Assembly (NCBI RefSeq): GCF_963921235.1
Contig: NC_086097.1
Coordinates: 159,032,001-159,096,000 of the forward strand
Direction of reading: 5' to 3'
DNA from: Mobula hypostoma
Taxonomy: Eukaryota
DNA length: 64,000 nucleotides
A model generated the notes under the pieces. That model was not told the origin of the DNA, made no database searches, and saw only the letters and a program-made list of their open reading frames with translations. Position 1 is the first letter of the stretch, and every line of letters begins with the position of its first letter. Made by a program: the position numbers and the translations under genes. Positions 2,865-62,056 of this stretch are shown here, one piece after another.

Positions 2865-3035
2865 TTGTTAGGAGTTTGTACTTTCTCGTCGTGACTCTGT
2901 GGGTTTCCTCTGGGTGCTTTGGTTTCCTCCCACAGTCCAAATATGTACAGGTTAGTAGGTAAATTTGTCTTTGTAAATTACCCTGTGATTAGGCTGATGT
3001 GAAATAGCTGGCTTGCTGGGCAATGTGCCTCGTTA
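2865..3035 (+). mobile_element. V-SINE (HE1-like) fragment
   Basis: GGAGTTTGTACTTTCTCGTCGTGACTCTGTGGGTTTCCTCTGGGTGCTTTGGTTTCCTCCCACAGTCCAAA, a V-domain-like core. Confidence 0.7.
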
Positions 3036-3439
3036 ATGTAATGGATATTTACTTTCCAGAACCATGGGGCCTTTTATTGCCAAACACACTTCTCTAACAT
3101 TGTAGCTAAAATATCTAGAGATCAAAGAGTTATTTTTGAATAAGTTAAGCTGACAATCAGTATGATTTGTTCAGTTTCTTGTCATAAACAGGAACCAGCC
3201 TTCAGTTCTTGATGTAAGTGGCAAGCAATAATCAGTGTGTAGATAGCAGGACAGCTTTGGAAACAAACAGCACTGTGTATAGAATACAGACTGAGGGCCT
3301 GTATTCTAACATGATAACATAATTACTTTGCTTTGTGTTCAGTATTTGGATTACAAATAATACTCTGCTACAGTTTTCTTAAAGATAAAATACCTCTACC
3401 ATTTTTATTTGCTAAAACCTACAGGAACTTATCTCCATT

Positions 3440-3800
3440 ACCACCCATGGCTGTAACAACCTTAAGGAGCTACAGTGGGTGAGTTAGCAGAGGAAAGTCA
3501 CAGCAGTCAGGTCTCTGGCACTCAAAAGAGGAGTGAGGGAAAAGGAGCGCAGTAGGGATAAGGATTCCATAGTTAAAGCAGCAGACAGGAGATTCTGTGG
3601 ATGGGAAATAGGCGCACAGATGGTAAATTGCCTCCCATGGGTAGGGTCAGGGATGTCTTGGATAGACGGGTTACTCCTGAATACGAGGAGGACCAATATC
3701 TTTGCAAGTAGGTTTGCTAGAGCTGTTGAGGAGGGTTTAAGCTAACCTACCAAGGGGATGGGAACCAGAGTAATAGGGCTGAGGATAGGGCAAGTAGATA
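3440..3800 (+). mobile_element. Old CR1-like LINE, ORF1 (SGNH esterase-like) remnant; continues at 8861-9330 and 12170-14390 (APE/RT remnants)
   Basis: DSIVKAADRRFCG…MVNCLP resembles the CR1 ORF1 esterase. Downstream pieces read ARNIQNKVDD…YEVVGIAE and VMVVMGD (APE-like). TAGATA is repeated at 3795-3800 and 8861-8866 around the nested insertion. Confidence 0.65.
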
Positions 3801-4094
3801 ACCATATATAACCATATAACAATTACAGCACGGAAACAGGCCATCTCGGTCCTTCTAGTCCGTGCCAAACCCTTACTCTCACCTAGCTGCACCACCCTGC
3901 ACTCAGCCCATAACCCTCCATTCCTTTCCTGTCCATATAGCTGTCCAATTTAACTTTAAGCGACAACATCGAACCTGCCTCAACCACTTCTGCTGGAAGT
4001 TCGTTCCACACAGCTACCACTCTCTGAGTAAAAAAGTTCCCCCTCATGTTACCCCTAAACTTTTGCCCTTTAACTCTCAACTCATGTCTTTTTT
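3801..4094 (-). mobile_element. CR1-like LINE 3' fragment (host of the PLE; resumes at 8794-8860)
   Basis: Minus-strand RGNFFTQRVVAVWNELP… C-terminus and (TTATATGG)-type tail. Confidence 0.85.
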
Positions 4095-4139
4095 CGCATC
4101 TGCTCTCAGGATGAGGCTTTTCATTCTAGGACGAGGGAG

Positions 4140-4883
4140 ATGTCTTCATTTTTTAAAGAAAGGGGCTTCCCTTCCTCCACTATCAACTCTGCTCTTAAAC
4201 GCATCTCCCCCATTTCACGTACATCTGCTCTCACTCCATCCTCCCACCACCCCACTAGGAATAGGGTTCCCCTGGTCCTCACCTACTACCCCACCAGCCT
4301 CCGGGTCCAACATATTATTCTCCGTAACTTCCGCCACCTCCAACGGGATCCCACCACTAAGCATATCTTTCCCTCCCCGCCTCTCTCTGCATTCCGCAGG
4401 GATCGCTCCCTACACAACTCCCTTGTCCATTCGTCCCCCCCATCCCTCCCCACTGATCTCCCTGCTGGCACTTATCCGTGTAAGCGGAACAAGTGCTACA
4501 CATGCCCTTACACTTCCTCCCTTACCACCATTCAGGGCCCCAAACAGTCCTTCCAGGTGAGGCATCACTTCACCTGTGAGTCGACTGGGGTGATATACTG
4601 CGTCCGGTGCTCCCGATGTGGCCTTTTATATATTGGTGAGACCCGACGCAGACTGGGAGACTGCTTTGCTGAACATCTACGCTCTGTCCGCCAGAGAAAG
4701 CAGGATCTCCCAGTGGCCACACATTTTAATTCCACATCCCATTCCCATTCTGACATGTCTATCCACGGCCTCCTCTACTGTAAAGATGAAGCCACACTCA
4801 GGTTGGAGGAACAACACCTTATATTCCGTCTGGGTAGCCTCCAACCTGATGGCATGAACATTGACTTCTCTAACTTCCGCTAG
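4140..4883 (+). pseudogene. 5'-truncated duplicate of the PLE ORF C-terminus (linker + GIY-YIG)
   Basis: The 247 aa are nearly identical to the last 247 aa of 5275-8403 (visible differences Y/H, C/R, H/Y). Confidence 0.9.
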
Positions 4884-5176
4884 GCCCCACCTCCCCCTCG
4901 TACCCCATCTGTTACTCTTTTTATGCACACATTCTTTCTCTCACTCTCCTTTTTCTCCCTCTGTCCCTCTGAATATACCTCTTGCCCATCCTCTGGGTCA
5001 CCCCCACCCCCCGTCTTTCTTCCCGGACCTCCTGTCCCATGATCCTCTCGTATCCCCTTCTGCCTATCACCTGTCCAGCTCTCGGCTCCATCCCTCCCCC
5101 TCCTGTCTTCTCCTATCATTTTGCATCTCCCCCTCCCCCTCCAGCTTTCAAATCCCTTACTCACTCTTCCTTCAGT

Positions 5177-5214
5177 TAGTCCTGACGAAGGGTCTCGGCC
5201 TGAAACGTCGACTG
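5177..5214 (+). ncRNA. Minimal type-I hammerhead ribozyme (upstream pLTR)
   Basis: TAGTC-CTGACGA-AGGGTCTCGGCCT-GAAA-CG-TC^GACTG. Conserved CUGANGA and GAAA..UH core; stem I TAGTC/GACTG; short stem II; palindromic ACGU helix III. Predicted cleavage after 5209. Confidence 0.85.
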
Positions 5215-5274
5215 CGCCTCTTCGCAGTTGGTGGATGCTGCCTGGCCTGCTGCGTTCACCAGCAACTTTGATGT

Positions 5275-8200
5275 ATGTTGCTTGAATTTCCAGCATCTGC
5301 AGAATTCCTGTTGTTTGCGTTTAAATTCACTACTGCGAAGCCTCTTCCGGTGATGCCTACACCGAAGAAGTTTAGATCCTCTCTTCGACGGGAGTTCAGT
5401 GAAACCATCTCTCACTGCTCCCCATCTGTGATTTCTTCGGCTCTTCAACTTTTCGACCAGACTTTGACTCAAACTCGCTATCACTGCCGTGTATCCTTTC
5501 TTGGAACGTGCCTCCGTCGCCAACTTACTCCAGTTGGCTTTAGGATTCGTTTCCAAGCCTCTCAATTTGGACCTTCTGAGGATCCCAGGTACTCACATTT
5601 CATTGACTCTGCCTCTCGCCGCTTCTCCCGTCAAGCTCTGAAGGCGACGCTCTCCGCCATGAGGAGGTACTTGGTGTCCCTATCCCAGACCCTTCCACAC
5701 TTTCGGGACACTTTCTTCGCCGTCTGTAATGGTCCTACCCGATATTTCATCCTCCGTCGGATCCACGCCTGCAATCGCCGTTTCTTTGACTTTGTCATGT
5801 TAGGCAAAGATCGCAAGATCTTACATCTACGGACTGCAGAGCCTGCCGGCCCCGACGCTAGCAGGCATGAACTTTCGGTTGCGGCCCCTGCCGTTGGTCT
5901 CGGCGGCTCCAACACCTCAGGACATATTCAAAACCCGGACTCCAGCAACGACCATGGAGACATTCAAAGCGATCGCGCAACCACCAACTGCGACTCCAGC
6001 CTTGAACTCCAGGCCGGGTCTTTATGTGCTGCTGTTGTGACTCCCGTCTCCCCTTCCCCCACCACCACTCCGCAGCCCCGTCTTCCTCAGATCCCACCGT
6101 CAACTCCTGGGCCCTCAGAGGCTCCATCTTCCTCTCACCCCAACCCTCCCCTCTCCATTGACACCCCCAGCCTCCCCCCTCCCCCCTCTGATCCCAGCTC
6201 TCATCCGTGCCGGGTCTTTACCATCCCCTCCGACCTTCAACTGTCGGAGGCAGAACGCTCTGTTCTCAGTAAGGGCCTCACGTTTGTCCCCCTTCGCCCA
6301 CACCTCAGCGAGTTCCGTGTTCGCCATGATGCGGAACTTTTCTTCCGCCGTCTCCGTCTCCGAGCCTACTTCTTCGGCAAGGACTCTTCCACCCCCACCG
6401 ATGACCCCTTCTCCTGTCTTCATCCCTCCTCTTCTTCATGGACACCCCGCTCTGGTCTTCTGCCTGCTCTGGATCTCTTTATTGCCAACTGCCGACGGGA
6501 CATCAACCGTCTCGACTTCACCGCACCTTGTCCCCATTCCAACCTCACTCCTTCGGAATGCTCTGTTCTCCACTCCCTCCGCACTAATCCTAACATTATT
6601 ATTAAACCCGCTGATAAGGGGGGTGCTGTTGTAGTCTGGCGTACTGACCTCTACCTTGCCGAGGCACAGCGACAACTCGCGGATACCTCCTCTTATTTAC
6701 CCCTCGATCGTGACCCCACTAAGGAGCACCAGGCCATTGTCTCCCACACTATCAACGACTTTATCCGCTCAGGGGATCTCCCATCCACTGCTACCAACCT
6801 TATAGTTCCCACACCCCGCACTTCCCGTTTCTACCTCCTACCCAAGATCCACAAACCTGCCTGTCCTGGCCGACCTATTGTCTCAGCTTGCTCCTGCCCC
6901 ACCGAACTCGTTTCTGCATACCTCGACACTGTTTTATCACCCCTTGTTCAATCCCTTCCGACCTATGTTCGTGACACTTCTCACGCTCTTAAACTTTTCA
7001 ATGATTTTAAGTTCCCTGGCCCCCACCGCTTTATTTTCACCTTGGATGTCCAGTCCCTATATACTTCCATCCCCCATCAGGAAGGTCTCAAAGCTCTACG
7101 CTTCTTTTTGGATTCCAGACCTAATCAGTTCCCCTCTACCACCACTCTGCTCCGTCTGGCAGAATTAGTCCTTACTCTTAATAATTTCTCCTTTTGCTCC
7201 TCCCATTTCCTCCAAACTAAAGGTGTAGCTATGGGCACCCGTATGGGTCCTAGCTATGCCTGCCTTTTTGTTGGGTTTGTGGAACAATCTATGTTCCGGG
7301 CCTATTCTGGTATCTGTCCCCCACTTTTCCTTCGCTACATCGACGACTGCATTGGCGCTGCTTCCTGCACGCATGCAGAACTCGTTGACTTTATTAACTT
7401 TGCCTCCAACTTTCACCCTGCCCTCAAGTTTACCTGGTCCATTTCTGACACCTCCCTCCCCTTTCTAGATCTTTCTGTCTCTGTCTCTGGAGACAGCTTA
7501 TCCACTGATGTCTACTATAAGCCTACTGACTCTCACAACTATCTGGACTATTCCTCTTCTCACCCTGTCTCTTGCAAAAACGCCATCCCCTTCTCGCAAT
7601 TCCTCCGTCTCCGCCGCATCTGCTCTCAGGATGAGGCTTTTCATTCTAGGACGAGGGAGATGTCTTCATTTTTTAAAGAAAGGGGCTTCCCTTCCTCCAC
7701 TATCAACTCTGCTCTTAAACGCATCTCCCCCATTTCACGTACATCTGCTCTCACTCCATCCTCCCACCACCCCACTAGGAATAGGGTTCCCCTGGTCCTC
7801 ACCTACCACCCCACCAGCCTCCGGGTCCAACATATTATTCTCCGTAACTTCCGCCACCTCCAACGGGATCCCACCACTAAGCATATCTTTCCCTCCCCGC
7901 CTCTCTCTGCATTCCGCAGGGATCGCTCCCTACACAACTCCCTTGTCCATTCGTCCCCCCCATCCCTCCCCACTGATCTCCCTGCTGGCACTTATCCGTG
8001 TAAGCGGAACAAGTGCTACACATGCCCTTACACTTCCTCCCTTACCACCATTCAGGGCCCCAAACAGTCCTTCCAGGTGAGGCATCACTTCACCTGTGAG
8101 TCGACTGGGGTGATATACTGCGTCCGGTGCTCCCGATGTGGCCTTTTATATATTGGTGAGACCCGACGCAGACTGGGAGACCGCTTTGCTGAACATCTAC

Positions 8201-8403
8201 GCTCTGTCCGCCAGAGAAAGCAGGATCTCCCAGTGGCCACACATTTTAATTCCACATCCCATTCCCATTCTGACATGTCTATCCACGGCCTCCTCTACTG
8301 TAAAGATGAAGCCACACTCAGGTTGGAGGAACAATACCTTATATTCCGTCTGGGTAGCCTCCAACCTGATGGCATGAACATTGACTTCTCTAACTTCCGC
8401 TAG
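5275..8403 (+). CDS. Penelope-like element (Neptune-type) polyprotein: reverse transcriptase + GIY-YIG endonuclease, uninterrupted 1042 aa
   Basis: PLE RT motifs IIIKPADKGGAVVV, FYLLPKIHK, GRPIVS, LDVQSLYTSIP, GVAMGTRMGPSYA, LRYIDD and VYYKPTD. Cys-rich linker CKRNKCYTC followed by VIYCVRCSRCGLLYIGET..R..EH (GIY-YIG). No stops or frameshifts. Confidence 0.95.
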   Translation: MLLEFPASAEFLLFAFKFTTAKPLPVMPTPKKFRSSLRREFSETISHCSPSVISSALQLFDQTLTQTRYHCRVSFLGTCLRRQLTPVGFRIRFQASQFGPSEDPRYSHFIDSASRRFSRQALKATLSAMRRYLVSLSQTLPHFRDTFFAVCNGPTRYFILRRIHACNRRFFDFVMLGKDRKILHLRTAEPAGPDASRHELSVAAPAVGLGGSNTSGHIQNPDSSNDHGDIQSDRATTNCDSSLELQAGSLCAAVVTPVSPSPTTTPQPRLPQIPPSTPGPSEAPSSSHPNPPLSIDTPSLPPPPSDPSSHPCRVFTIPSDLQLSEAERSVLSKGLTFVPLRPHLSEFRVRHDAELFFRRLRLRAYFFGKDSSTPTDDPFSCLHPSSSSWTPRSGLLPALDLFIANCRRDINRLDFTAPCPHSNLTPSECSVLHSLRTNPNIIIKPADKGGAVVVWRTDLYLAEAQRQLADTSSYLPLDRDPTKEHQAIVSHTINDFIRSGDLPSTATNLIVPTPRTSRFYLLPKIHKPACPGRPIVSACSCPTELVSAYLDTVLSPLVQSLPTYVRDTSHALKLFNDFKFPGPHRFIFTLDVQSLYTSIPHQEGLKALRFFLDSRPNQFPSTTTLLRLAELVLTLNNFSFCSSHFLQTKGVAMGTRMGPSYACLFVGFVEQSMFRAYSGICPPLFLRYIDDCIGAASCTHAELVDFINFASNFHPALKFTWSISDTSLPFLDLSVSVSGDSLSTDVYYKPTDSHNYLDYSSSHPVSCKNAIPFSQFLRLRRICSQDEAFHSRTREMSSFFKERGFPSSTINSALKRISPISRTSALTPSSHHPTRNRVPLVLTYHPTSLRVQHIILRNFRHLQRDPTTKHIFPSPPLSAFRRDRSLHNSLVHSSPPSLPTDLPAGTYPCKRNKCYTCPYTSSLTTIQGPKQSFQVRHHFTCESTGVIYCVRCSRCGLLYIGETRRRLGDRFAEHLRSVRQRKQDLPVATHFNSTSHSHSDMSIHGLLYCKDEATLRLEEQYLIFRLGSLQPDGMNIDFSNFR

Positions 8404-8695
8404 GCCCCACCTCCCCCTCGTACCCCATCTGTTACTCTTTTTATGCACACATTCTTTCTCTCACTCTCCTTTTTCTCCCTCTGTCCCTCTGAATATACCT
8501 CTTGCCCATCCTCTGGGTCACCCCCCCCCCCGTCTTTCTTCCCGGACCTTCTGTCCCATGATCCTCTCGTATCCCCTTCTGCCTATCACCTGTCCAGCTC
8601 TCGGCTCCATCCCTCCCCCTCCTGTCTTCTCCTATCATTTTGCATCTCCCCCTCCCCCTCCAGCTTTCAAATCCCTTACTCACTCTTCCTTCAGT

Positions 8696-8733
8696 TAGTC
8701 CTGACGAAGGGTCTCGGCCTGAAACGTCGACTG
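8696..8733 (+). ncRNA. Minimal type-I hammerhead ribozyme (downstream pLTR)
   Basis: Identical to 5177-5214; predicted cleavage after 8728. Confidence 0.85.
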
Positions 8734-9339
8734 CGCCTCTTCCTATAGATGCTGCCTGGCCTGCTGCGTTCACCAGCAACTTTGATGTATGTTCCTTTTG
8801 TTTGAATCTCCCCCACTCTCAATGGAAAAAGCCTATCCATGTCAATTCTATTTATCCCCCTAGATACAGTGTGTGGTGGTACTGTGAGGAATTACGGGTA
8901 GATGACAGGGCAGTATTTCACTCAGTGTCATGAGTTGAAGTGTAACATGGGTTCAAAATTGAAAATGATGATGAATACAGGACAAGAGAGGGTGATTGAA
9001 AAGCACGTAATATACAGAATAAGGTAGATGATTTTGCAGCGCATTTAGAGTTTGGCAGGTATGAAGTTGTGGGCATTGCTGAGTTATGACTGAAAGATCA
9101 TGGTTGGGAAATTAACACCCAAGGAAAGGACAGGCAGGTAAGCAGAAGTGGTGGAATGGCTCTGTTGGTAAAAAAAATAAATAAATCGGCTCCTGACAAA
9201 GAGGTAATATAGGATCGGAAGATGTAGAGTCCTTGTCGGTAGAGTTAAGAAACTGCAAGGTTAAAAAGACTCTGATGGTAGTTATAAACAATCCTCTGAA
9301 TAGTAAAGTTCTAAAGTTAAATAAATTGAGAATTGGTGG

Positions 9340-11931
9340 ATGTTGTGTTCCTGGATTTTTAGAAGGCCTTTCATAAGGTGCCACTCATGAGGCTGTTTAT
9401 CAAGTTAAGAGCCTATGGTATTACAAGAAAGTTACTAGCATGGTTAGAGCATTGGCTGATTGGTAGGAGGCAGAGAGTGGGAATAAAAGGACATTTTCTG
9501 GTTGGCTGCCAGTGACTAGTGGTGTTCTGCAGCGGTCGGTGTTGGGACGGTATGTTTTTACACTGTATATCAATGATTTAAATAATGGCATTGTTGCCAA
9601 GTTTGCAGATGTTACGAAGATTGGCGGAGGGGCAAGTAGTGTTGAGGAAACTGGAAAGCTGCAGAAGGACTTAGACAGATTAGGAGAATGGGCAAAAAAG
9701 TAGCAAATGAAATACAGGTGTCCCCCGCTTTTCGAACATTCGCTTTACGAAACCTCACTGTTACGAAAGACCTACATTAGTTACCTGTTTTCGCTAACAG
9801 AAGGTGTTTTCACTGTTACGAAAAAAGGCAATGCGCAAAAAAACAGCGCGCGCCCCGAGCAGCCGCTCTCCCCCCGGATTAGGAATGGTAATCTTGCCAG
9901 CATTGCTTAAATACGTGCCTGTGAGCAGTCGTTTGCAAGGTGAGTTCTAAGGTATCAGAAAAGCCTAAAAGAGCTCATAAGGGTGTTACACTTTGCTTAA
10001 AACTAGACATAATTAAGCATTTTGATCGTGGTGAACGAAATAAGGACAAAGTGAGTTTGGCTTGTGGAAGTTGACGAAGATGATGTTGAAGAGGTTTTGG
10101 CATCCCATGACCAAGAACTGATAGATAAAGAGCTGATGCAATTGGAATAGGAAAGGATAACAATCAAAACCGAATGCAGTAGCGAATGGACTGAGAGTGA
10201 AGCCGTCCAGGAACTGAACGTGAAGCAACTGCGTGAATTTTCACTGCAATGATAAAGTATGACTTTAATTTTGAAAGGGTACATCAGTTTAGGGTATATT
10301 TGCAGGATGGTTTGAGTGCTTACAAAGAACTGTATGATAGAAAAATGTGCAAGGCTAGCAGTCAAGCATACTGTCGTTTTTCAAGCCTTCCACATCAGCC
10401 ACAGCAGATGACGAACCTCGACCTTTGACATCAAGGCAGGCAGAGATAGAAGAAGATGACTTGCCTGCCCTGATCAACGATGGGATGACACCCCAGTGGT
10501 CCCAACCTCTGGGCCGCGTTCAGATACCAATCTGCGGAGAATGCAGCAGTAGCCGGGAGGCACCCAGCACATCTTTAAGAAAAAAGCTGAAACAAACAAG
10601 CTAATTAATTAGGTGCCACCCGGTACGTAAATATTGGCCCAGAGGCGATGTATTTTTATGTGTCATTTGGTATGATTTGGCAGCTTCATAGCTTAAAGGT
10701 TACTGGAGAGGGTGTTTCTGCCGAGAGCGCTTGCGTGAGATGTTCTGCCGAGAGCGCTTGCGCCATGTTTCTGCCAAGAGCGCTTGCGTGAGATTTTCGC
10801 TATGGAGAACAGTGCAGGCAATGGTTGTAGAAAAGTATTTCTATTTTATATAGGCAGTGTATTTAACATATCATTCTTGCTTTTACTGTATGTTATTGTT
10901 ATTTTAGGTTTTATGTGTTATTTGGCATGATTTGATAGGTTATTTTTGGGTCTGCGAACGCTCACAAATTTTTCTCATATAAATAAATGGTAATTGCTTC
11001 TTCATTTTACGACATTCCAGCTTACGAATCATTTCATAGGAACGCTGTACCTTCGGATGGCGGGGGAAACCTGTACAATGTTGGAAACTGCATGGTCATG
11101 CACTTTGATAGAAGAAATAAATGTGCAGACTATTTTCTAAATGGGGAGAAAATCCAAAACTCTGAAGTGCAAAGGGACTTGGGAGTCCTTGTGCAGAATA
11201 CCCTAAAGGTTAACTTGCAGGTCAAGGTGGCGGTGAGGAAGGCACATGTCATGTCGGCGGTGAGGAAGGCACATGTCATGTCAGCATTCATTTCAAGAGG
11301 TCTAGAATATATGAGCAGGGATGCGATGCTGAAGATTTATTAGGCACTGGTGAGGCCACACCTTGAGTATTGTGAACAATGTTGGGCTGCTTATCTGAGA
11401 AAAGCTGTGCTGGCATTGGAAAGTGTGGAAAGGGTTCAGAGGAAGTTAACAAAGATGATACTGGGAATGAAAGGGTTATTATACAAGGAACATTTGATGA
11501 CTCTGGGCCTATACTTGCTGGAATTTAGAAGGATGAGGTGGGGGGAGGGATCTCATTGAAACTTTTCAAATGTTGAAAGACCTAGACAGGGTAGATATGG
11601 AAAGGATGTTTCCCATGGTGGGGGAGTCTAGGACAAGAGGGCACAGCATCAGGATAGTGGGGTGTCCATTCAAAACAAAGGGACAGAGACATTTCTTTAG
11701 CCAGAGGGTTGTGAATTTGTGGAATTTGTTAACCACAGGCAGCTCTGGAGGCCAGGTCCCTGGGTATATTTAAGGCAGAGATTGATAGGTTCTTGATTGG
11801 TCATGGCGTTATGGGGAGAAGTTCAGGAGAGAGGGGCTGAGGAGGGAAAAAAAAGTATCAGTCATGATTGAATGGCAGATCAGATTCGATGAGCCAAATG
11901 GCCTAAATCTGCTTCTATGTCTTATGGTCTT
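9340..11931 (+). mobile_element. CR1-like LINE RT-to-3' fragment, interrupted by a Tigger MITE
   Basis: SGVLQRSVLG…YINDL…KFADVTK, RPHLEYC, FFSQRVVNLWN and a CTTATGGTCTT tail. Contains a 27-bp tandem duplication at ~11229-11283. Confidence 0.85.
9715..11073 (+). mobile_element. Tigger/pogo-derived non-autonomous DNA transposon
   Basis: TIRs CAGGTGTCCCCCGC / GCGGGGGAAACCTG with TA TSD. Residual KLDIIKHFDRGER (psq-HTH-like) and acidic EVDEDDVEEVLASHDQEL. Confidence 0.85.
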
Positions 11932-12961
11932 AAATTTATTATCGAAGTACATATATGTCACCATATACAACCCTGATAGTCATTTTTTTGTGGGCATAAT
12001 CAATAAATCCATAATAGAACCAATGAAAGTGCACCAATTTGAGCATTCAAAAGACAACAAATGGCAAATACAATGAGAAAGAAATAATAATAATACTAAA
12101 TAAATAAGCAATAAATATGAAGAGTCATGATAGTAGATATGAGACACAAATATCAATGGAAGATAGAAAATGCATGTAAAAAGCACAAAGTAATGGTGGT
12201 CATGGGGGATTCAATACACAGGTAGATTAGGAAAATCTGGATCCCAAGTCATGGTATTTGTAGAGTGCCTATGAGATGGATTTTTAGTGAAGCTTGTAGT
12301 TGAGTCCACTAGGGCAGCGGTCCCCAACCACCGGGCCACAAGGCATGTGCTACCGTGAAGAAACGATATGAGTCAGCTGCACCTTTCCTCATTCCCTGTC
12401 ACGCACTGTTGAACTTGAACATAGGGTTGCCAACTGTCCCGTATTTGCCGGGACATCCCATATATTGGGCTAAATTGGTTTGTTCCATATTTCCCCCGCT
12501 AAGGTAGAGCGTTCCTATGAAACCTTTCGTGCCGAAATGGCGTGAAGCGAAGAAGCAATTACCATTAATTTATATGGGGAAAATGTTTGAGTGTTCACAG
12601 ACCCAAAAAATAACCTAACAAATCATACCAAATAACACATAAAACCAAAAATAAATAACCCTAATATATAGTAAAAGCAGGAATGATATGATAAATACAC
12701 AGCCTATATAAAGTAGAAATGATGTATGTAACAGTATAGTCAGGAAGATGAAGGCAAAACCGATTTGTGGGAAAATATTGGCACGTTCGCACATGCGCAC
12801 ATCACATGCGCACGTCACGCATGCGCACACAGATGCCCGCGCAAGGCTTCATGGTCATGGTAGGCTTTCTTGGGGTAAAGTGTCCCGGGATTTGACTGCT
12901 ACTTTTGTCCCTTATTTGGGAGTGAGAAAGTTGGCAACCCTAACTGTAAAAGACATGTGGA

Positions 12962-13198
12962 CTCGGCTCTATCCCTCCCCCTCCTGTCTTCTCCTATCAT
13001 TTTGCATCTCCCCCTCCCCCTCCAGCTTTCAAATCCCTTACTCACTCTTCCTTCAGTTAGTCCTGACGAAGAGTCTCGGCCTGAAACGTCGACTGCGCTT
13101 CTTCCTATAGATGCTGCTTGGCCTGCTGCGTTCACCAGCAACTTTGATGTGTGTTGCTTGAATTTCCAGCATCTGCAGAATTCCTGTTGTTTGCGTTT
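12962..13198 (+). mobile_element. Short PLE pLTR-only insertion with 13-bp TSD
   Basis: Matches PLE 5081-5322. Flanked by AAAGACATGTGGA at 12949-12961 and 13199-13211. A similar uninterrupted host sequence occurs near 24841. Confidence 0.9.
13058..13095 (+). ncRNA. Hammerhead ribozyme motif in a short PLE-derived insert
   Basis: TAGTC-CTGACGA-AGAGTCTCGGCCT-GAAACGTC-GACTG: core intact, one stem II substitution. Confidence 0.75.
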
Positions 13199-16650: not shown

Positions 16651-17517
16651 GACACTTCATTGAGCTGCCTGTCCTGCTCCTCCTGCAACCATGTCTCACA
16701 AATGGCAAAAGATGTACTGGCATTGGAGAGGGCCCAGAGGAGGTTCATGACAATTATTTTGGGAATGAAAGGGTTAACATTTGAAGAGCATTTGATGGTT
16801 CTGGGCCTGTGCTCATTAGAGTTTAGAAGAAAACATGGGAGCAAAATCTTAGAATGGAAACAAGAAGGAATTTCATCTCTCCAAGGGGTGCTAATCTTTC
16901 ATTATCTTTAACCTAGAGAGGTATGGAACCTGAATGTAGACTTTTTTTATTCTATTGGGGACTCAAGGGTTATGACAAGCAGAAAGGCAGGAGAAACTTC
17001 AAATATAAATCAGATAGGTTTATGATCTTACTTATGGTGCATATGGCTTGAGAGATCAGAAGGCCACTTCCTCCTCCGATTTATTTATGTGCTATGCTTT
17101 ATAAATGAAAGCATAGATTATACAGTACTTACAAAAGATGTAGGCACATATATAATAAAGGTTCAAAGGTTCATTTTATTATCAAAGTATGTATGCAGAA
17201 TACAGTTCTGAGATTTGTCTTCTTTAGATAGTCATTAAATACAGGAAACCAAAGAAGTAGTTGAAAGAAAGACATCAATTCCAACCCCCACCCCTGCATG
17301 AAAGAAAAAGAAACAAAACCTTGCAAACCCCAAACCCCCTGAGCTCTCACTCAAAACGTGAACCAGTCGCCCTTCCAAGGGAAGCAACACAAACCAGCAG
17401 CTTCCCAGGGGCAGCTAGAATGCCTAAGACTTTTGCATAATGTGTGTATATTATGTCTTTCCAGTTACCAAATAACACGTAATACTACTGAGCTAATAGA
17501 AAGCTAAGTACTCTTAC

Positions 17518-17714: not shown

Positions 17715-17863
17715 GTCTCGTGAGTCCTGACGAGGGTCTCGGCCCAAAACCTCGACTGTACTTCTTCCTGTAGATGCTGCCTGGCCTGCAGTATTCCACC
17801 AGCATTTTGTTTGTGTGTGTTGCTTGAATTTCCGGCATCGGTAGATTTCCTCATGTTTGCGTT
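17715..17863 (+). mobile_element. Short PLE pLTR/HHR insertion (degenerate core)
   Basis: AGTCCTGACGAGGGTCTCGGCCCAAAACCTCGACT…GATGCTGCCTGGCCTGC…TTTGCGTT. Confidence 0.8.
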
Positions 17864-29871: not shown

Positions 29872-29961
29872 GAAGGGTCTCGGCCCGAAACGTCAACTGT
29901 ACCTCTTCCTATAGATGCTGCCTGGCCTGCTGCGTTCACCAGCAATTTTTATGTGTGTTGC
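29872..29961 (+). mobile_element. Very short PLE pLTR insertion (truncated HHR) with 9-bp TSD
   Basis: GAAGGGTCTCGGCCCGAAACGTCAACT…; TGCAGGAAG at 29867-29875 and 29959-29967. Confidence 0.85.
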
Positions 29962-30559: not shown

Positions 30560-30734
30560 ACAACAGGAATTCTGCAGATGCTGGAAATTCAAGCAACACG
30601 CATCAAAGTTGCTGGTGAACGCAGCAGGCCAGGCAGCATCTCTTGGAAGAGGTCTTGGCCTGAAACGTCGACTGTCCCTCTTCCTAGAGATGCTTCCTGG
30701 CCTGCTGCGTTCACCAACAACTTTGATGCATGTT
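30560..30734. mobile_element. PLE pLTR insertion with an inverted segment (hairpin) and ~15-bp TSD
   Basis: Minus-strand pLTR piece at 30560-~30650 joined to a plus-strand piece at ~30650-30734. TTACCAAT(G/A)TAGTTA at 30545-30559 and 30733-30747. Confidence 0.85.
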
Positions 30735-60889: not shown

Positions 60890-62056
60890 CAGACATGTAG
60901 GAGATTAGTGTGCAAATTTAAAGCACACGGTATTGGGGTTAAGGTATTGATGTGGATGGAAAATTCGTTAGCAGACAGGAAGCAAAGAGTGGGAATAAAC
61001 GGGACCTTTTCAGAATGGCAGGCGGTGACTAGTGGGGTACCGCAAGGCTCAGTGCTGGGACCCCAGTTGTTTACAATATATATTAATGACTTGGATGAGG
61101 GAATTAAATGCAGCATCTCCAAGTTTGCGGATGACACGAAGCTGGGTGGCAGTGTTAGCTGTGAGGAGGATGCTAAGAGGACGGAGGGTGACTTGGATAG
61201 GTTGGGTGAGTGGGCAAATTCATGGCAGATGCAATTTAATGTGGATAAATGTGAAGTTATCCACTTTGGTGGCAAAAATAGGAAAACAGATCTGAAATCT
61301 GAATGGTGGCCGATTAGGAAAAGGGGAGGTGCAACGAGACCTGGGTGTCATTACACACCAGTCATTGAAAGTGGGCATGCAGGTACAGCAGGCGGTGAAA
61401 AAGGCGAATGGTATGCTGGCATTTATAGCGAGAGGATTCAAGTACAGGAGCAGGGAGGTACTACTGCAGTTGTACAAGGCCTTGGTGAGACCACACCTGG
61501 AGTATTGTGTGCAGTTTTGGTCCCCTAATCTGAGGAAAGACATCCTTGCCATAGAGGGAGTACAAAGAAGGTTCACCAGATTGATTCCTGGGATGGCAGG
61601 ACTTTCATATGAAGAAAGACTGGATGAACTGGGCTTGTACTCGTTGGAATTTAGAAGATTAAGGGGGGATCTGATTGAAACGTATAAGATCCTAAAGGGA
61701 TTGGACAGGCTAGATGCAGGAAGATTGTTCCCGATGTTGGGGAAGTCCAGAACGAGGAGCCACAGTTTGAGGATAGAGGGGAAGCTTTTTAGGACCGAGA
61801 TTAGGAAAAACTTCTTCACACAGAGAGTGGTGAATCTGTGGAATTCTCTGCCACAGGAAACAGTTGAGGCCAGTTCATTGGCTATATTTAAGAGGGAGTT
61901 AGATATGGCCCTTGTGGCTGCGGGGGTCAGGGGGTATGGAGGGAAGGCTGGGGCGGGGTTCTGAGTTGGATGATCAGCCATGATCATAATAAATGGTGGT
62001 GCAGGCTCGAAGGGCCGAATGGCCTACTCCTGCACCTATTTTCTATGTTTCTATGT
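60890..62056 (+). mobile_element. Young 5'-truncated CR1-like LINE (RT C-terminal half, one frameshift at ~61290)
   Basis: SGVPQGSVLGP, YINDL, KFADDTK, RPHLEYC, RRLRGDLIETYK, FFTQRVVNLWNSLP; (TTTCTATG)n tail. Confidence 0.92.

What the first reader, a model, noticed from the sequence alone, without database searches (positions are those of the whole stretch)
5177..8733. Intact Penelope-like element whose whole ORF lies between two identical minimal hammerhead ribozymes
Seen: identical CUGACGA…GAAACGUC^GACUG hammerheads at 5177-5214 and 8696-8733, 3519 nt apart, bracket an uninterrupted RT + GIY-YIG ORF whose ATG is 65 nt after the first predicted cleavage site. Established: PLE pLTRs carry minimal type-I HHRs whose short palindromic helix III (here ACGU) is thought to work as a dimer. 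Inference: a read-through transcript could pair both motifs in cis and excise a unit-length ~3.5-kb coding RNA (5210-8728), with ends suitable for RtcB-type circularisation. This is a candidate active, ribozyme-processed vertebrate retroelement.
Basis: partly seen in the sequence, partly recalled or inferred. Interest (0 to 1): 0.8.

Follow-up and report, generated by a model that had tools for sequence, protein, structure and literature searches.

The report
Young intact Penelope element, twin hammerheads
This is a recently inserted, unbroken copy of a known kind of jumping gene in a likely ray genome; the two identical small ribozyme motifs are one end-repeat copied twice, a layout already described, and nothing here shows that they cut out or circularise the RNA.

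Summary
In detail: identical 38-nt minimal hammerheads (5177-5214, 8696-8733) flank an open 1042-codon RT + GIY-YIG frame whose model best matches telomerase RT. It is a Neptune-type Penelope-like element in the usual partial-tandem form (4095-8793, inserted in a LINE fragment). The motifs are identical because 1.19 kb is duplicated (4 substitutions before the motif region ends). This layout and the cleave-and-circularise idea were published in 2014; a marine contig (L020) shows the same layout. Against simple excision: none of 8 window copies ends or starts at the cut site; 3' ends lie +65-69 or +101-110 nt beyond it (the known two-site 'tail'), so the template was uncut or re-ligated RNA. 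A private 10-for-5-nt scar (5224-5233) is predicted to misfold the 5' ribozyme of this copy. The start codon is likely 5353, not 5275. Across 80 related loci, 20 sense-strand minimal hammerheads, all with palindromic helix III, support constraint on the motif. The scan noted the same motif and stubs before, in this and other shark/ray genomes. Useful residue: private variants give a clean test for a circle.

The parts
4095..8793 (+). Whole insertion: 5'-truncated upstream unit + full unit + short tail (partial tandem), with a T6 run at 4089-4094 at the left junction
   Evidence: blastn self-match 4095-5283 vs 7615-8797; empty-site joint 4086->8793 in 4 of 4 runs laid; flanks match other LINE-like fragments of the window
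4095..5209 (+). Upstream 5'-truncated unit (end of RT thumb, endonuclease, 3' UTR): the pseudo-LTR
   Evidence: 4 substitutions and 1 single-base indel versus the downstream unit over 1129 nt
5177..5214 (+). Minimal type-I hammerhead 1: helix I UAGUC/GACUG, core CUGACGA, bulged A, helix II GGGU/GCCU, GAA, palindrome ACGU, predicted cut 5209|5210
5224..5233 (+). Private scar, 10 nt in place of 5 nt; 5222-5234 is an exact 13-nt inverted match to 5981-5993; forms a predicted 7-bp hairpin with 5210-5216
   Evidence: -8.1 kcal/mol versus 0 for the unscarred 8729-8748
5279..5325 (+). 'Tail': region between the family's two 3'-end classes (about 5279-5282 and 5315-5325), inferred reverse-transcription start sites
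   Evidence: window copies; loose ends 5282, 5320, 5321 and 13158, 13193-13198
5275..8403 (+). Open frame, 1042 aa from first ATG; likely true start ATG 5353 (1016 aa): helical N-terminal domain, disordered linker, RT, CX4CXXC linker, GIY-YIG endonuclease with CCHH
7036..7347 (+). RT motifs A (FTLDVQSLY), B' (GVAMGTRMGPSYA), C (RYIDD), all intact
7999..8379 (+). CX4CXXC linker (7999-8025), VIY-CxxC-YIG (8110-8157), two His (8191-8247), catalytic Glu and Asn regions
   Evidence: R, E, N, C, H columns invariant or nearly so in 69 sequences
8404..8695 (+). 3' UTR, 292 nt, 80% pyrimidine, no AATAAA; its last 14 nt can pair with the ribozyme core
8696..8733 (+). Minimal type-I hammerhead 2, predicted cut 8728|8729
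8729..8793 (+). 65 nt of element beyond the second cut site, ending at the short-tail position

Best explanation
This is a young, unbroken Neptune-type Penelope-like retrotransposon in the ordinary partial-tandem form, likely copied into the genome from an RNA that was still continuous across both hammerhead cut sites, with the hammerheads likely cutting only a fraction of transcripts, as pairs or with protein help, and the 5' one of this copy predicted to be blocked by a private scar. Steps: (shown) one unit of 3519 nt is preceded by 1115 nt of its own 3' end and followed by 65 nt past the second cut, so each unit brings one hammerhead; (inferred from PAc biochemistry and from the two end classes here) the GIY-YIG domain nicks AT-rich DNA and the RT starts inside the RNA at +65-69 or +101-110 after the motif and copies back through it, mostly stopping early, which gives the many stubs; (inferred) this copy came from a more-than-unit template, most simply a read-through transcript of a tandem donor; (inferred, least certain) cleavage, where it happens, trims the 5' end of the coding RNA upstream of the start codon, serving translation or turnover and not the making of the transposition template.
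For: Telomerase RTs are the five best fold matches of the model (pLDDT 86.7); CX4CXXC linker and CCHH endonuclease as defined in PMC8557442. 3' ends of 8 of 8 window copies lie at +65 to +69 (3) or about +101 to +110 (5), 0 at the cut; 5' ends at -1115, -129, -35, -34, -23, -23, +11, +19, 0 at +1. In public runs the listed loose ends with diverse AT-rich flanks fall at the same two classes (5282, 5320, 5321; 13158, 13193-13198 in 3 of 4 runs). Summed contig depth falls from about 400,000 at the motif/tail to about 1,000 at the ORF 5' end in X1, the pattern of 5' truncation. PMC11167929: RT starts internally at two sites that define the tail, HHR mutants insert normally, cleavage needs protein, no reads end at the cut. 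Scar: P(helix I) 0.01 versus 0.96 for RNAs starting at helix I with 25 nt downstream (0.13 versus 0.55 with 60 nt). Motif constraint across the clade: 20 sense hits in 18 of 80 loci, palindromic helix III in 20 of 20 with unrelated helix I/II sequences.
Against: A cut-and-religated circle would leave the same genomic ends and explains more-than-unit copies without a tandem donor; nothing here separates the two. Both units share letters that differ from the majority in the runs (7668, 7766, 7884), as a single template would give. Folding is equilibrium, single-strand prediction and ignores dimers, protein and co-transcriptional folding. The runs are contigs of unnamed, probably related species, not on record as RNA, so no RNA end was observed. 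Only 24 of 522 and 24 of 2201 loose-end rows were shown. The translation role rests on fungal-virus and plant reporter data (PMC13725137), not on PLEs. Clade placement is by domain layout, not by a tree with named references.
Confidence: 0.6

Rival explanations
1. One reading: both hammerheads pair and cut, a host RtcB-type ligase closes the 3519-nt unit, and the RT starts inside the circle at the tail and goes round more than once, giving the partial tandem.
For: Proposed in PMC4209133; shown for 170-400-nt animal retrozymes, with RtcB ligation above 80% in vitro (PMC7229834). The whole ORF lies between the cuts here and in L020. This insertion is 1.3 units long and both units are 99.6% alike. 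Palindromic helix III is kept across the clade.
Against: No PLE circle found in the papers retrieved; PAc inserts without cleavage and shows no RNA ends at the cut. A circle gives no obvious reason for stubs to stop 23-35 nt before the cut (4 of 8 window copies). Both motifs here are predicted to be sequestered in read-through context, min-HHRs cleave poorly even as dimers, and two weak motifs 3.5 kb apart must meet through a 4-bp duplex of about -3.1 kcal/mol.
Confidence: 0.15
2. The motif is mainly a structural or protein-binding signal near the RNA 5' end and RT start sites; cleavage in vivo is negligible in this family.
For: Family majority has G.U, not G-C, at the 10.1-11.1 pair (U in about 92%, 93%, 87%, 66% of depth in four runs), while 17 of 20 motifs in related loci have G-C. 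The isolated 38-mer folds with core GACG paired to CGUC. All 8 CpG positions of the motif vary at 5% or more in at least one run.
Against: Catalytic core, cut-site triplet and palindrome are kept across highly divergent families, which a mere binding site would not need; PAc HHR does cleave with protein. CpG decay is expected in dead copies.
Confidence: 0.15
3. The two units were joined by separate events (template jump or second insertion into the first copy's end repeat), and the scar at 5224-5233 is the joint.
For: The scar lies between the units and looks like a templated repair patch (13-nt inverted match); tandem insertion is the older explanation of pseudo-LTRs (PMC2377424).
Against: Family 3' ends lie at +65 or beyond, not +14; the units share letters that differ from the run majorities.
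Confidence: 0.1

Closest known systems
Endonuclease-positive Penelope-like elements, Neptune clade (Arkhipova 2006 as summarised in PMC8557442)
   Same: Single ORF with telomerase-like RT, CX2-5CXXC linker, C-terminal GIY-YIG with CCHH; partial tandem with pseudo-LTR; optional 30-40-nt tail; inverted truncated copies; HHR in the pseudo-LTR.
   Different: Nothing in kind. A cartilaginous-fish family with a ~120-aa disordered linker; no named Repbase family could be compared.
Minimal type-I hammerheads (min-HHR) of metazoan PLEs (PMC4209133)
   Same: Short helix I, bulged nucleotide before helix II, no loop III, palindromic 15.2-16.2, two copies about 3 kb apart around the ORF, many solo copies; same cleave-and-circularise proposal.
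   Different: Helix II is short (4 bp) and closes with G.U at 10.1-11.1 in place of the usual G-C.
PAc, Poseidon element of Anolis carolinensis (PMC11167929)
   Same: Two RT start sites downstream of the HHR, AT-rich targets, ends not at the cut site.
   Different: In PAc the start codon lies inside the HHR and the cut is 26 nt into the ORF; here the cut is 143 nt upstream of the likely start, so a cut RNA keeps the whole ORF. Different clade.
Non-LTR retrozymes of animals (PMC7229834; bioRxiv 10.64898/2026.07.22.740005)
   Same: Type-I HHR per tandem unit, dimer dependence in vertebrates.
   Different: Those are 170-400-nt non-coding units with proven circles; this is a 3.5-kb coding unit with no circle shown.

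Membership tests
EN+ Penelope-like element | RT closest to telomerase RT | tested here: met
   Top five Foldseek matches are TERT (E 2e-10 to 5e-9), ahead of group II intron, retron, R2 and L1 RTs; no tree built
EN+ Penelope-like element | C-terminal GIY-YIG endonuclease with CCHH in the same ORF | tested here: met
   Pfam GIY-YIG aa 945-1021; VIY-CxxC-YIG and two His; weak I-TevI sequence match
EN+ Penelope-like element | Partial tandem forming a pseudo-LTR | tested here: met
EN+ Penelope-like element | Optional 30-40-nt tail at insertion ends | tested here: met
   Two end classes 35-40 nt apart
Neptune clade | CX2-5CXXC linker between RT and EN | tested here: met
   CKRNKCYTC aa 909-917; shared with Nematis per PMC8557442
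Neptune clade | RT phylogeny with named Neptune references | not testable with these tools
   No named reference set was held
min-HHR (type I) | Core CUGANGA, GAA, UH with helices I and II | tested here: met
min-HHR (type I) | Palindromic positions 15-16, no loop III | tested here: met
   ACGU; palindromic in 20 of 20 sense hits of relatives
min-HHR (type I) | Highly conserved G10.1-C11.1 pair | tested here: not met
   G.U wobble here and in most family depth; G-C in 17 of 20 relatives. Pairing is kept, so this lowers expected rate, not the layout
min-HHR (type I) | Self-cleavage as a dimer | not testable with these tools
   Bench test needed
Non-LTR retrozyme | Short non-coding tandem unit | tested here: not met
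   3519-nt unit with a 1016-1042-aa ORF
Non-LTR retrozyme | Circular RNA in vivo | not testable with these tools
   Only contigs available
Currently active element | Near-identical full-length copies or polymorphic insertions genome-wide | not testable with these tools
   No genome held; unit divergence 0.35%, 95% CI 0.10-0.91%

The most novel reading that the evidence does not exclude
This vertebrate family makes a 3.5-kb protein-coding circular RNA by paired hammerhead cleavage and host ligation, and its RT copies round the circle from the tail, which would settle how Penelope pseudo-LTRs regenerate; the ribozyme would be held off by the upstream pyrimidine tract until a nearby RNA 5' end or splicing at the CAG ending at 5175 frees it. 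This locus carries its own proof marker: an RNA with the downstream unit's 8550-T followed by the 5224-5233 scar cannot come from the linear genome.
Probability: 0.13. Interest if true: 0.7.

Novelty: new member of a known kind. Interest (0 to 1): 0.25.

Why it matters
As it stands it is an ordinary, well-preserved member of a described class. Its use is practical: PLE replication is still unresolved, only a Poseidon-clade protein has been reconstituted among the papers retrieved, and here is an open Neptune-type ORF with mapped tail sites and locus-private markers. If circles were found, it would be the first coding circular intermediate of an autonomous PLE among the papers retrieved and would explain how tandems regenerate.

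Tried and rejected
Rfam scan of 3000-12000: no hammerhead hit, one chance lncRNA hit at E 2.5. No whole genome held, so no genome-wide copy count. No RNA holder listed: the 23 runs are contigs and none is on record as RNA; depth was used only as a rough truncation profile. Within-family constraint test: non-CpG positions with a variant of 5% or more, 2 of 29 in the motif versus 16 of 82 in the flanks, after dropping 5 positions private to the reference copy; 17 variant rows were hidden; inconclusive. Upstream 'off-switch' hairpin: real in prediction (-9.9 kcal/mol) but 4% (20 nt) and 13% (40 nt) of 300 shuffles do as well, and only 3 of 19 related motifs show such core pairing above 0.5; not a clade feature. 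Identity of the two motifs as evidence of selection: rejected (p=0.87). ATG 5275 as start: disfavoured; 25 of 40 listed N-terminal matches imply a start at residue 26-34 and six begin exactly at residue 27. NCBIfam: no match. PDB sequence search: none with A1, weak hits with A2. Earlier findings by sequence and by relatives: nothing. Lunse, Weinberg and Breaker (dimers) is not held; seen only as a reference title. A clean target-site duplication for the main insertion was not found; at most an imperfect 6-7 nt.
Full report
Observation. The two 38-nt motifs at 5177-5214 and 8696-8733 are identical and the predicted cuts are 3519 nt apart. The frame 5275-8403 is open for 1042 codons and has RVT_1 and GIY-YIG matches, both under Pfam's curated cut-offs. 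Rfam does not detect the motifs. A descriptor for minimal type-I hammerheads passes only these two sites in the 64-kb window.

What it is. Self-comparison shows that 4095-5283 repeats 7615-8797 at 98.8%: a 5'-truncated unit in front of a full unit, the partial tandem that makes a pseudo-LTR (PMC2377424, passages; PMC8557442, passages). Over the first 1129 nt the units differ by 4 substitutions and one indel, 0.35% (95% CI 0.10-0.91%), so two identical 38-mers are expected with p=0.87. Contigs from 4 of 4 public runs join 4086 to 8793: the element sits in a LINE-like fragment whose relatives occur elsewhere in the window. RT motifs A, B' and C, a CX4CXXC linker, VIY-CxxC-YIG and the two histidines are all present. 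An AlphaFold model from 69 sequences (pLDDT 86.7; residues 165-283 disordered) matches telomerase RTs best (ranks 1-5). By the layout given in PMC8557442 this is a Neptune-type element; no tree with named references was possible. The start codon is likely 5353: 25 of 40 listed N-terminal matches imply a start at residue 26-34 and 6 of 7 other end-copies lack the ATG at 5275. Two short upstream ATGs lie out of frame. The copy is open but not pristine: the upstream unit has His where the full unit has Tyr1021, and eight positions differ from 75% or more of homologues, for example Val431 against Ala in 109 of 119; none is a catalytic residue.

The ribozyme motif. In 80 related metagenome loci (all 80 returned) the descriptor finds 20 sense-strand motifs in 18 loci, 3 antisense and 0-1 per shuffled set; helix III is palindromic in 20 of 20 although the descriptor allowed other stems, and helices I and II differ freely in sequence. 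L020 has exactly the reported layout: identical motifs at 30 and 3449 around an open 1049-aa ORF. In the fish runs, divergent subfamilies stop matching at 13058-13059 and 13095, the two ends of helix I. So the motif is under constraint as a hammerhead. Against strong activity: this family closes helix II with G.U (majority in four runs) where 17 of 20 relatives have G-C, and the isolated 38-mer pairs its core with the cut-site strand. A within-family variant test was inconclusive (2 of 29 versus 16 of 82 non-CpG positions).

Where the copies end. The main insertion ends at 8793, 65 nt past the second cut. The seven other end-copies end at +65, +67, +101, +102, +104, +107 and about +107-110, and the eight start at -1115, -129, -35, -34, -23, -23, +11 (diverged copy, core visible further up) and +19 (inverted arm); none ends or starts at the cut. 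Listed loose ends in the runs fall in the same two classes with diverse AT-rich flanks (5282, 5320, 5321; 13158 and 13193-13198); none of the 24 rows shown out of 522 lies at the cut. This is the tail that PMC11167929 (main text) traced to two internal RT start sites; that paper also found HHR mutants insert normally, cleavage needs the protein, and no RNA-seq reads end at the cut. A linear 5210-8728 RNA lacks the 3' tail and cannot have templated this insertion; the template was uncut or religated.

This copy's scar. At 5224-5233 ten bases replace five. 5222-5234 is an exact inverted match to 5981-5993, which suggests a templated repair patch (inference). It forms a predicted 7-bp hairpin with the 3' strand of helix I (-8.1 kcal/mol against 0 for the unscarred site); helix I probability drops from 0.96 to 0.01 (25 nt downstream) or 0.55 to 0.13 (60 nt). 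With 14 nt or more of upstream sequence both motifs are predicted to be locked by a hairpin between the pyrimidine tract and the core, but shuffles (4% and 13%) and relatives (3 of 19) make this a weak lead. These are single-strand equilibrium predictions.

Mechanism. Best reading (0.6): target-primed reverse transcription from an RNA continuous across the motifs, starting at one of two tail sites, with cleavage a slow, assisted side step that trims the 5' end upstream of the ORF; a translation role is borrowed from PMC13725137 (passages) and is untested for PLEs. The circle model (0.15) fits the more-than-unit length equally well and is proven for short retrozymes (PMC7229834, passages) but not, among the papers retrieved, for a coding PLE. 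A non-cleaving structural role (0.15) and a two-event origin (0.1) remain.

Known or new. PMC4209133 (abstract, results, discussion read) describes min-HHRs in both pseudo-LTRs, tandem pairs about 3 kb apart around an ORF, fish Neptune examples, low dimer activity, and proposes cleavage and circularisation. PMC6765202 (passages) repeats the model. The 2026 preprint on animal retrozymes (part 1 of 5 and passages) includes one chondrichthyan. PMC3846280 (passages) describes intact partial tandems inserted in a non-LTR element. Supplements of these papers were not opened; those of PMC4209133 may list cartilaginous-fish motifs. Lunse et al. was seen only as a title. Earlier scan notes report the same motif in this genome and stubs that begin just before it in other shark/ray genomes; I saw the clustering before that look-up.

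Verdict. Real, young, intact, ordinary in kind: a new member of a known family. Interest 0.25, resting on its value as test material: an RNA carrying 8550-T followed by the scar could only arise by joining the unit's ends.

Noticed in passing
window:5155-5176 and 8674-8695: Branch-like CUUAC/CUCAC, pyrimidine tract and CAG end one base before helix I; in D. virilis Penelope the intron ends at helix I (PMC4209133). The 3' UTR is 80% pyrimidine with 3 AGs, so the motif alone is weak.
   Followed up: partly
window:17514-17651, 17720-17863, 29872-29961, 30646-30734: Four stubs start 23-35 nt before the cut, inside or at the start of the motif; may mark the RNA 5' end or an RT pause.
   Followed up: partly
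window:30559-30734: Head-to-head inverted pair of end-copies, one with the long and one with the short tail.
   Followed up: partly
window:12962-13200: 5'-truncated copy with a 13-bp target-site duplication and a G>A change in helix II; the copies at 17514 and 29872 have duplications of about 14 and 9 bp.
   Followed up: yes
window:5222-5234 versus 5981-5993: Exact 13-nt inverted match; the replaced bases were an AT-rich run, possibly a site cut by the element's own endonuclease (speculation).
   Followed up: partly
window:8734-8750: Pyrimidine run plus AG before ATG recurs in diverged subfamilies (loose ends) and resembles a second splice acceptor; it is also part of a predicted stem with the tail.
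   Followed up: no
window:10654-12720: Long inverted repeats (84-92%, about 1.5-1.9 kb apart), probably two opposed copies or the ends of another transposon.
   Followed up: no
L013, L018, L015: Related marine elements with tandem (L013, L018) or inverted (L015) hammerhead-bearing ends; L049 and L077 have the U3-A8 core variant.
   Followed up: partly
window:25276-25908 (-), 60950-61964 (+): L1-like and CR1-like LINE fragments with open stretches.
   Followed up: no
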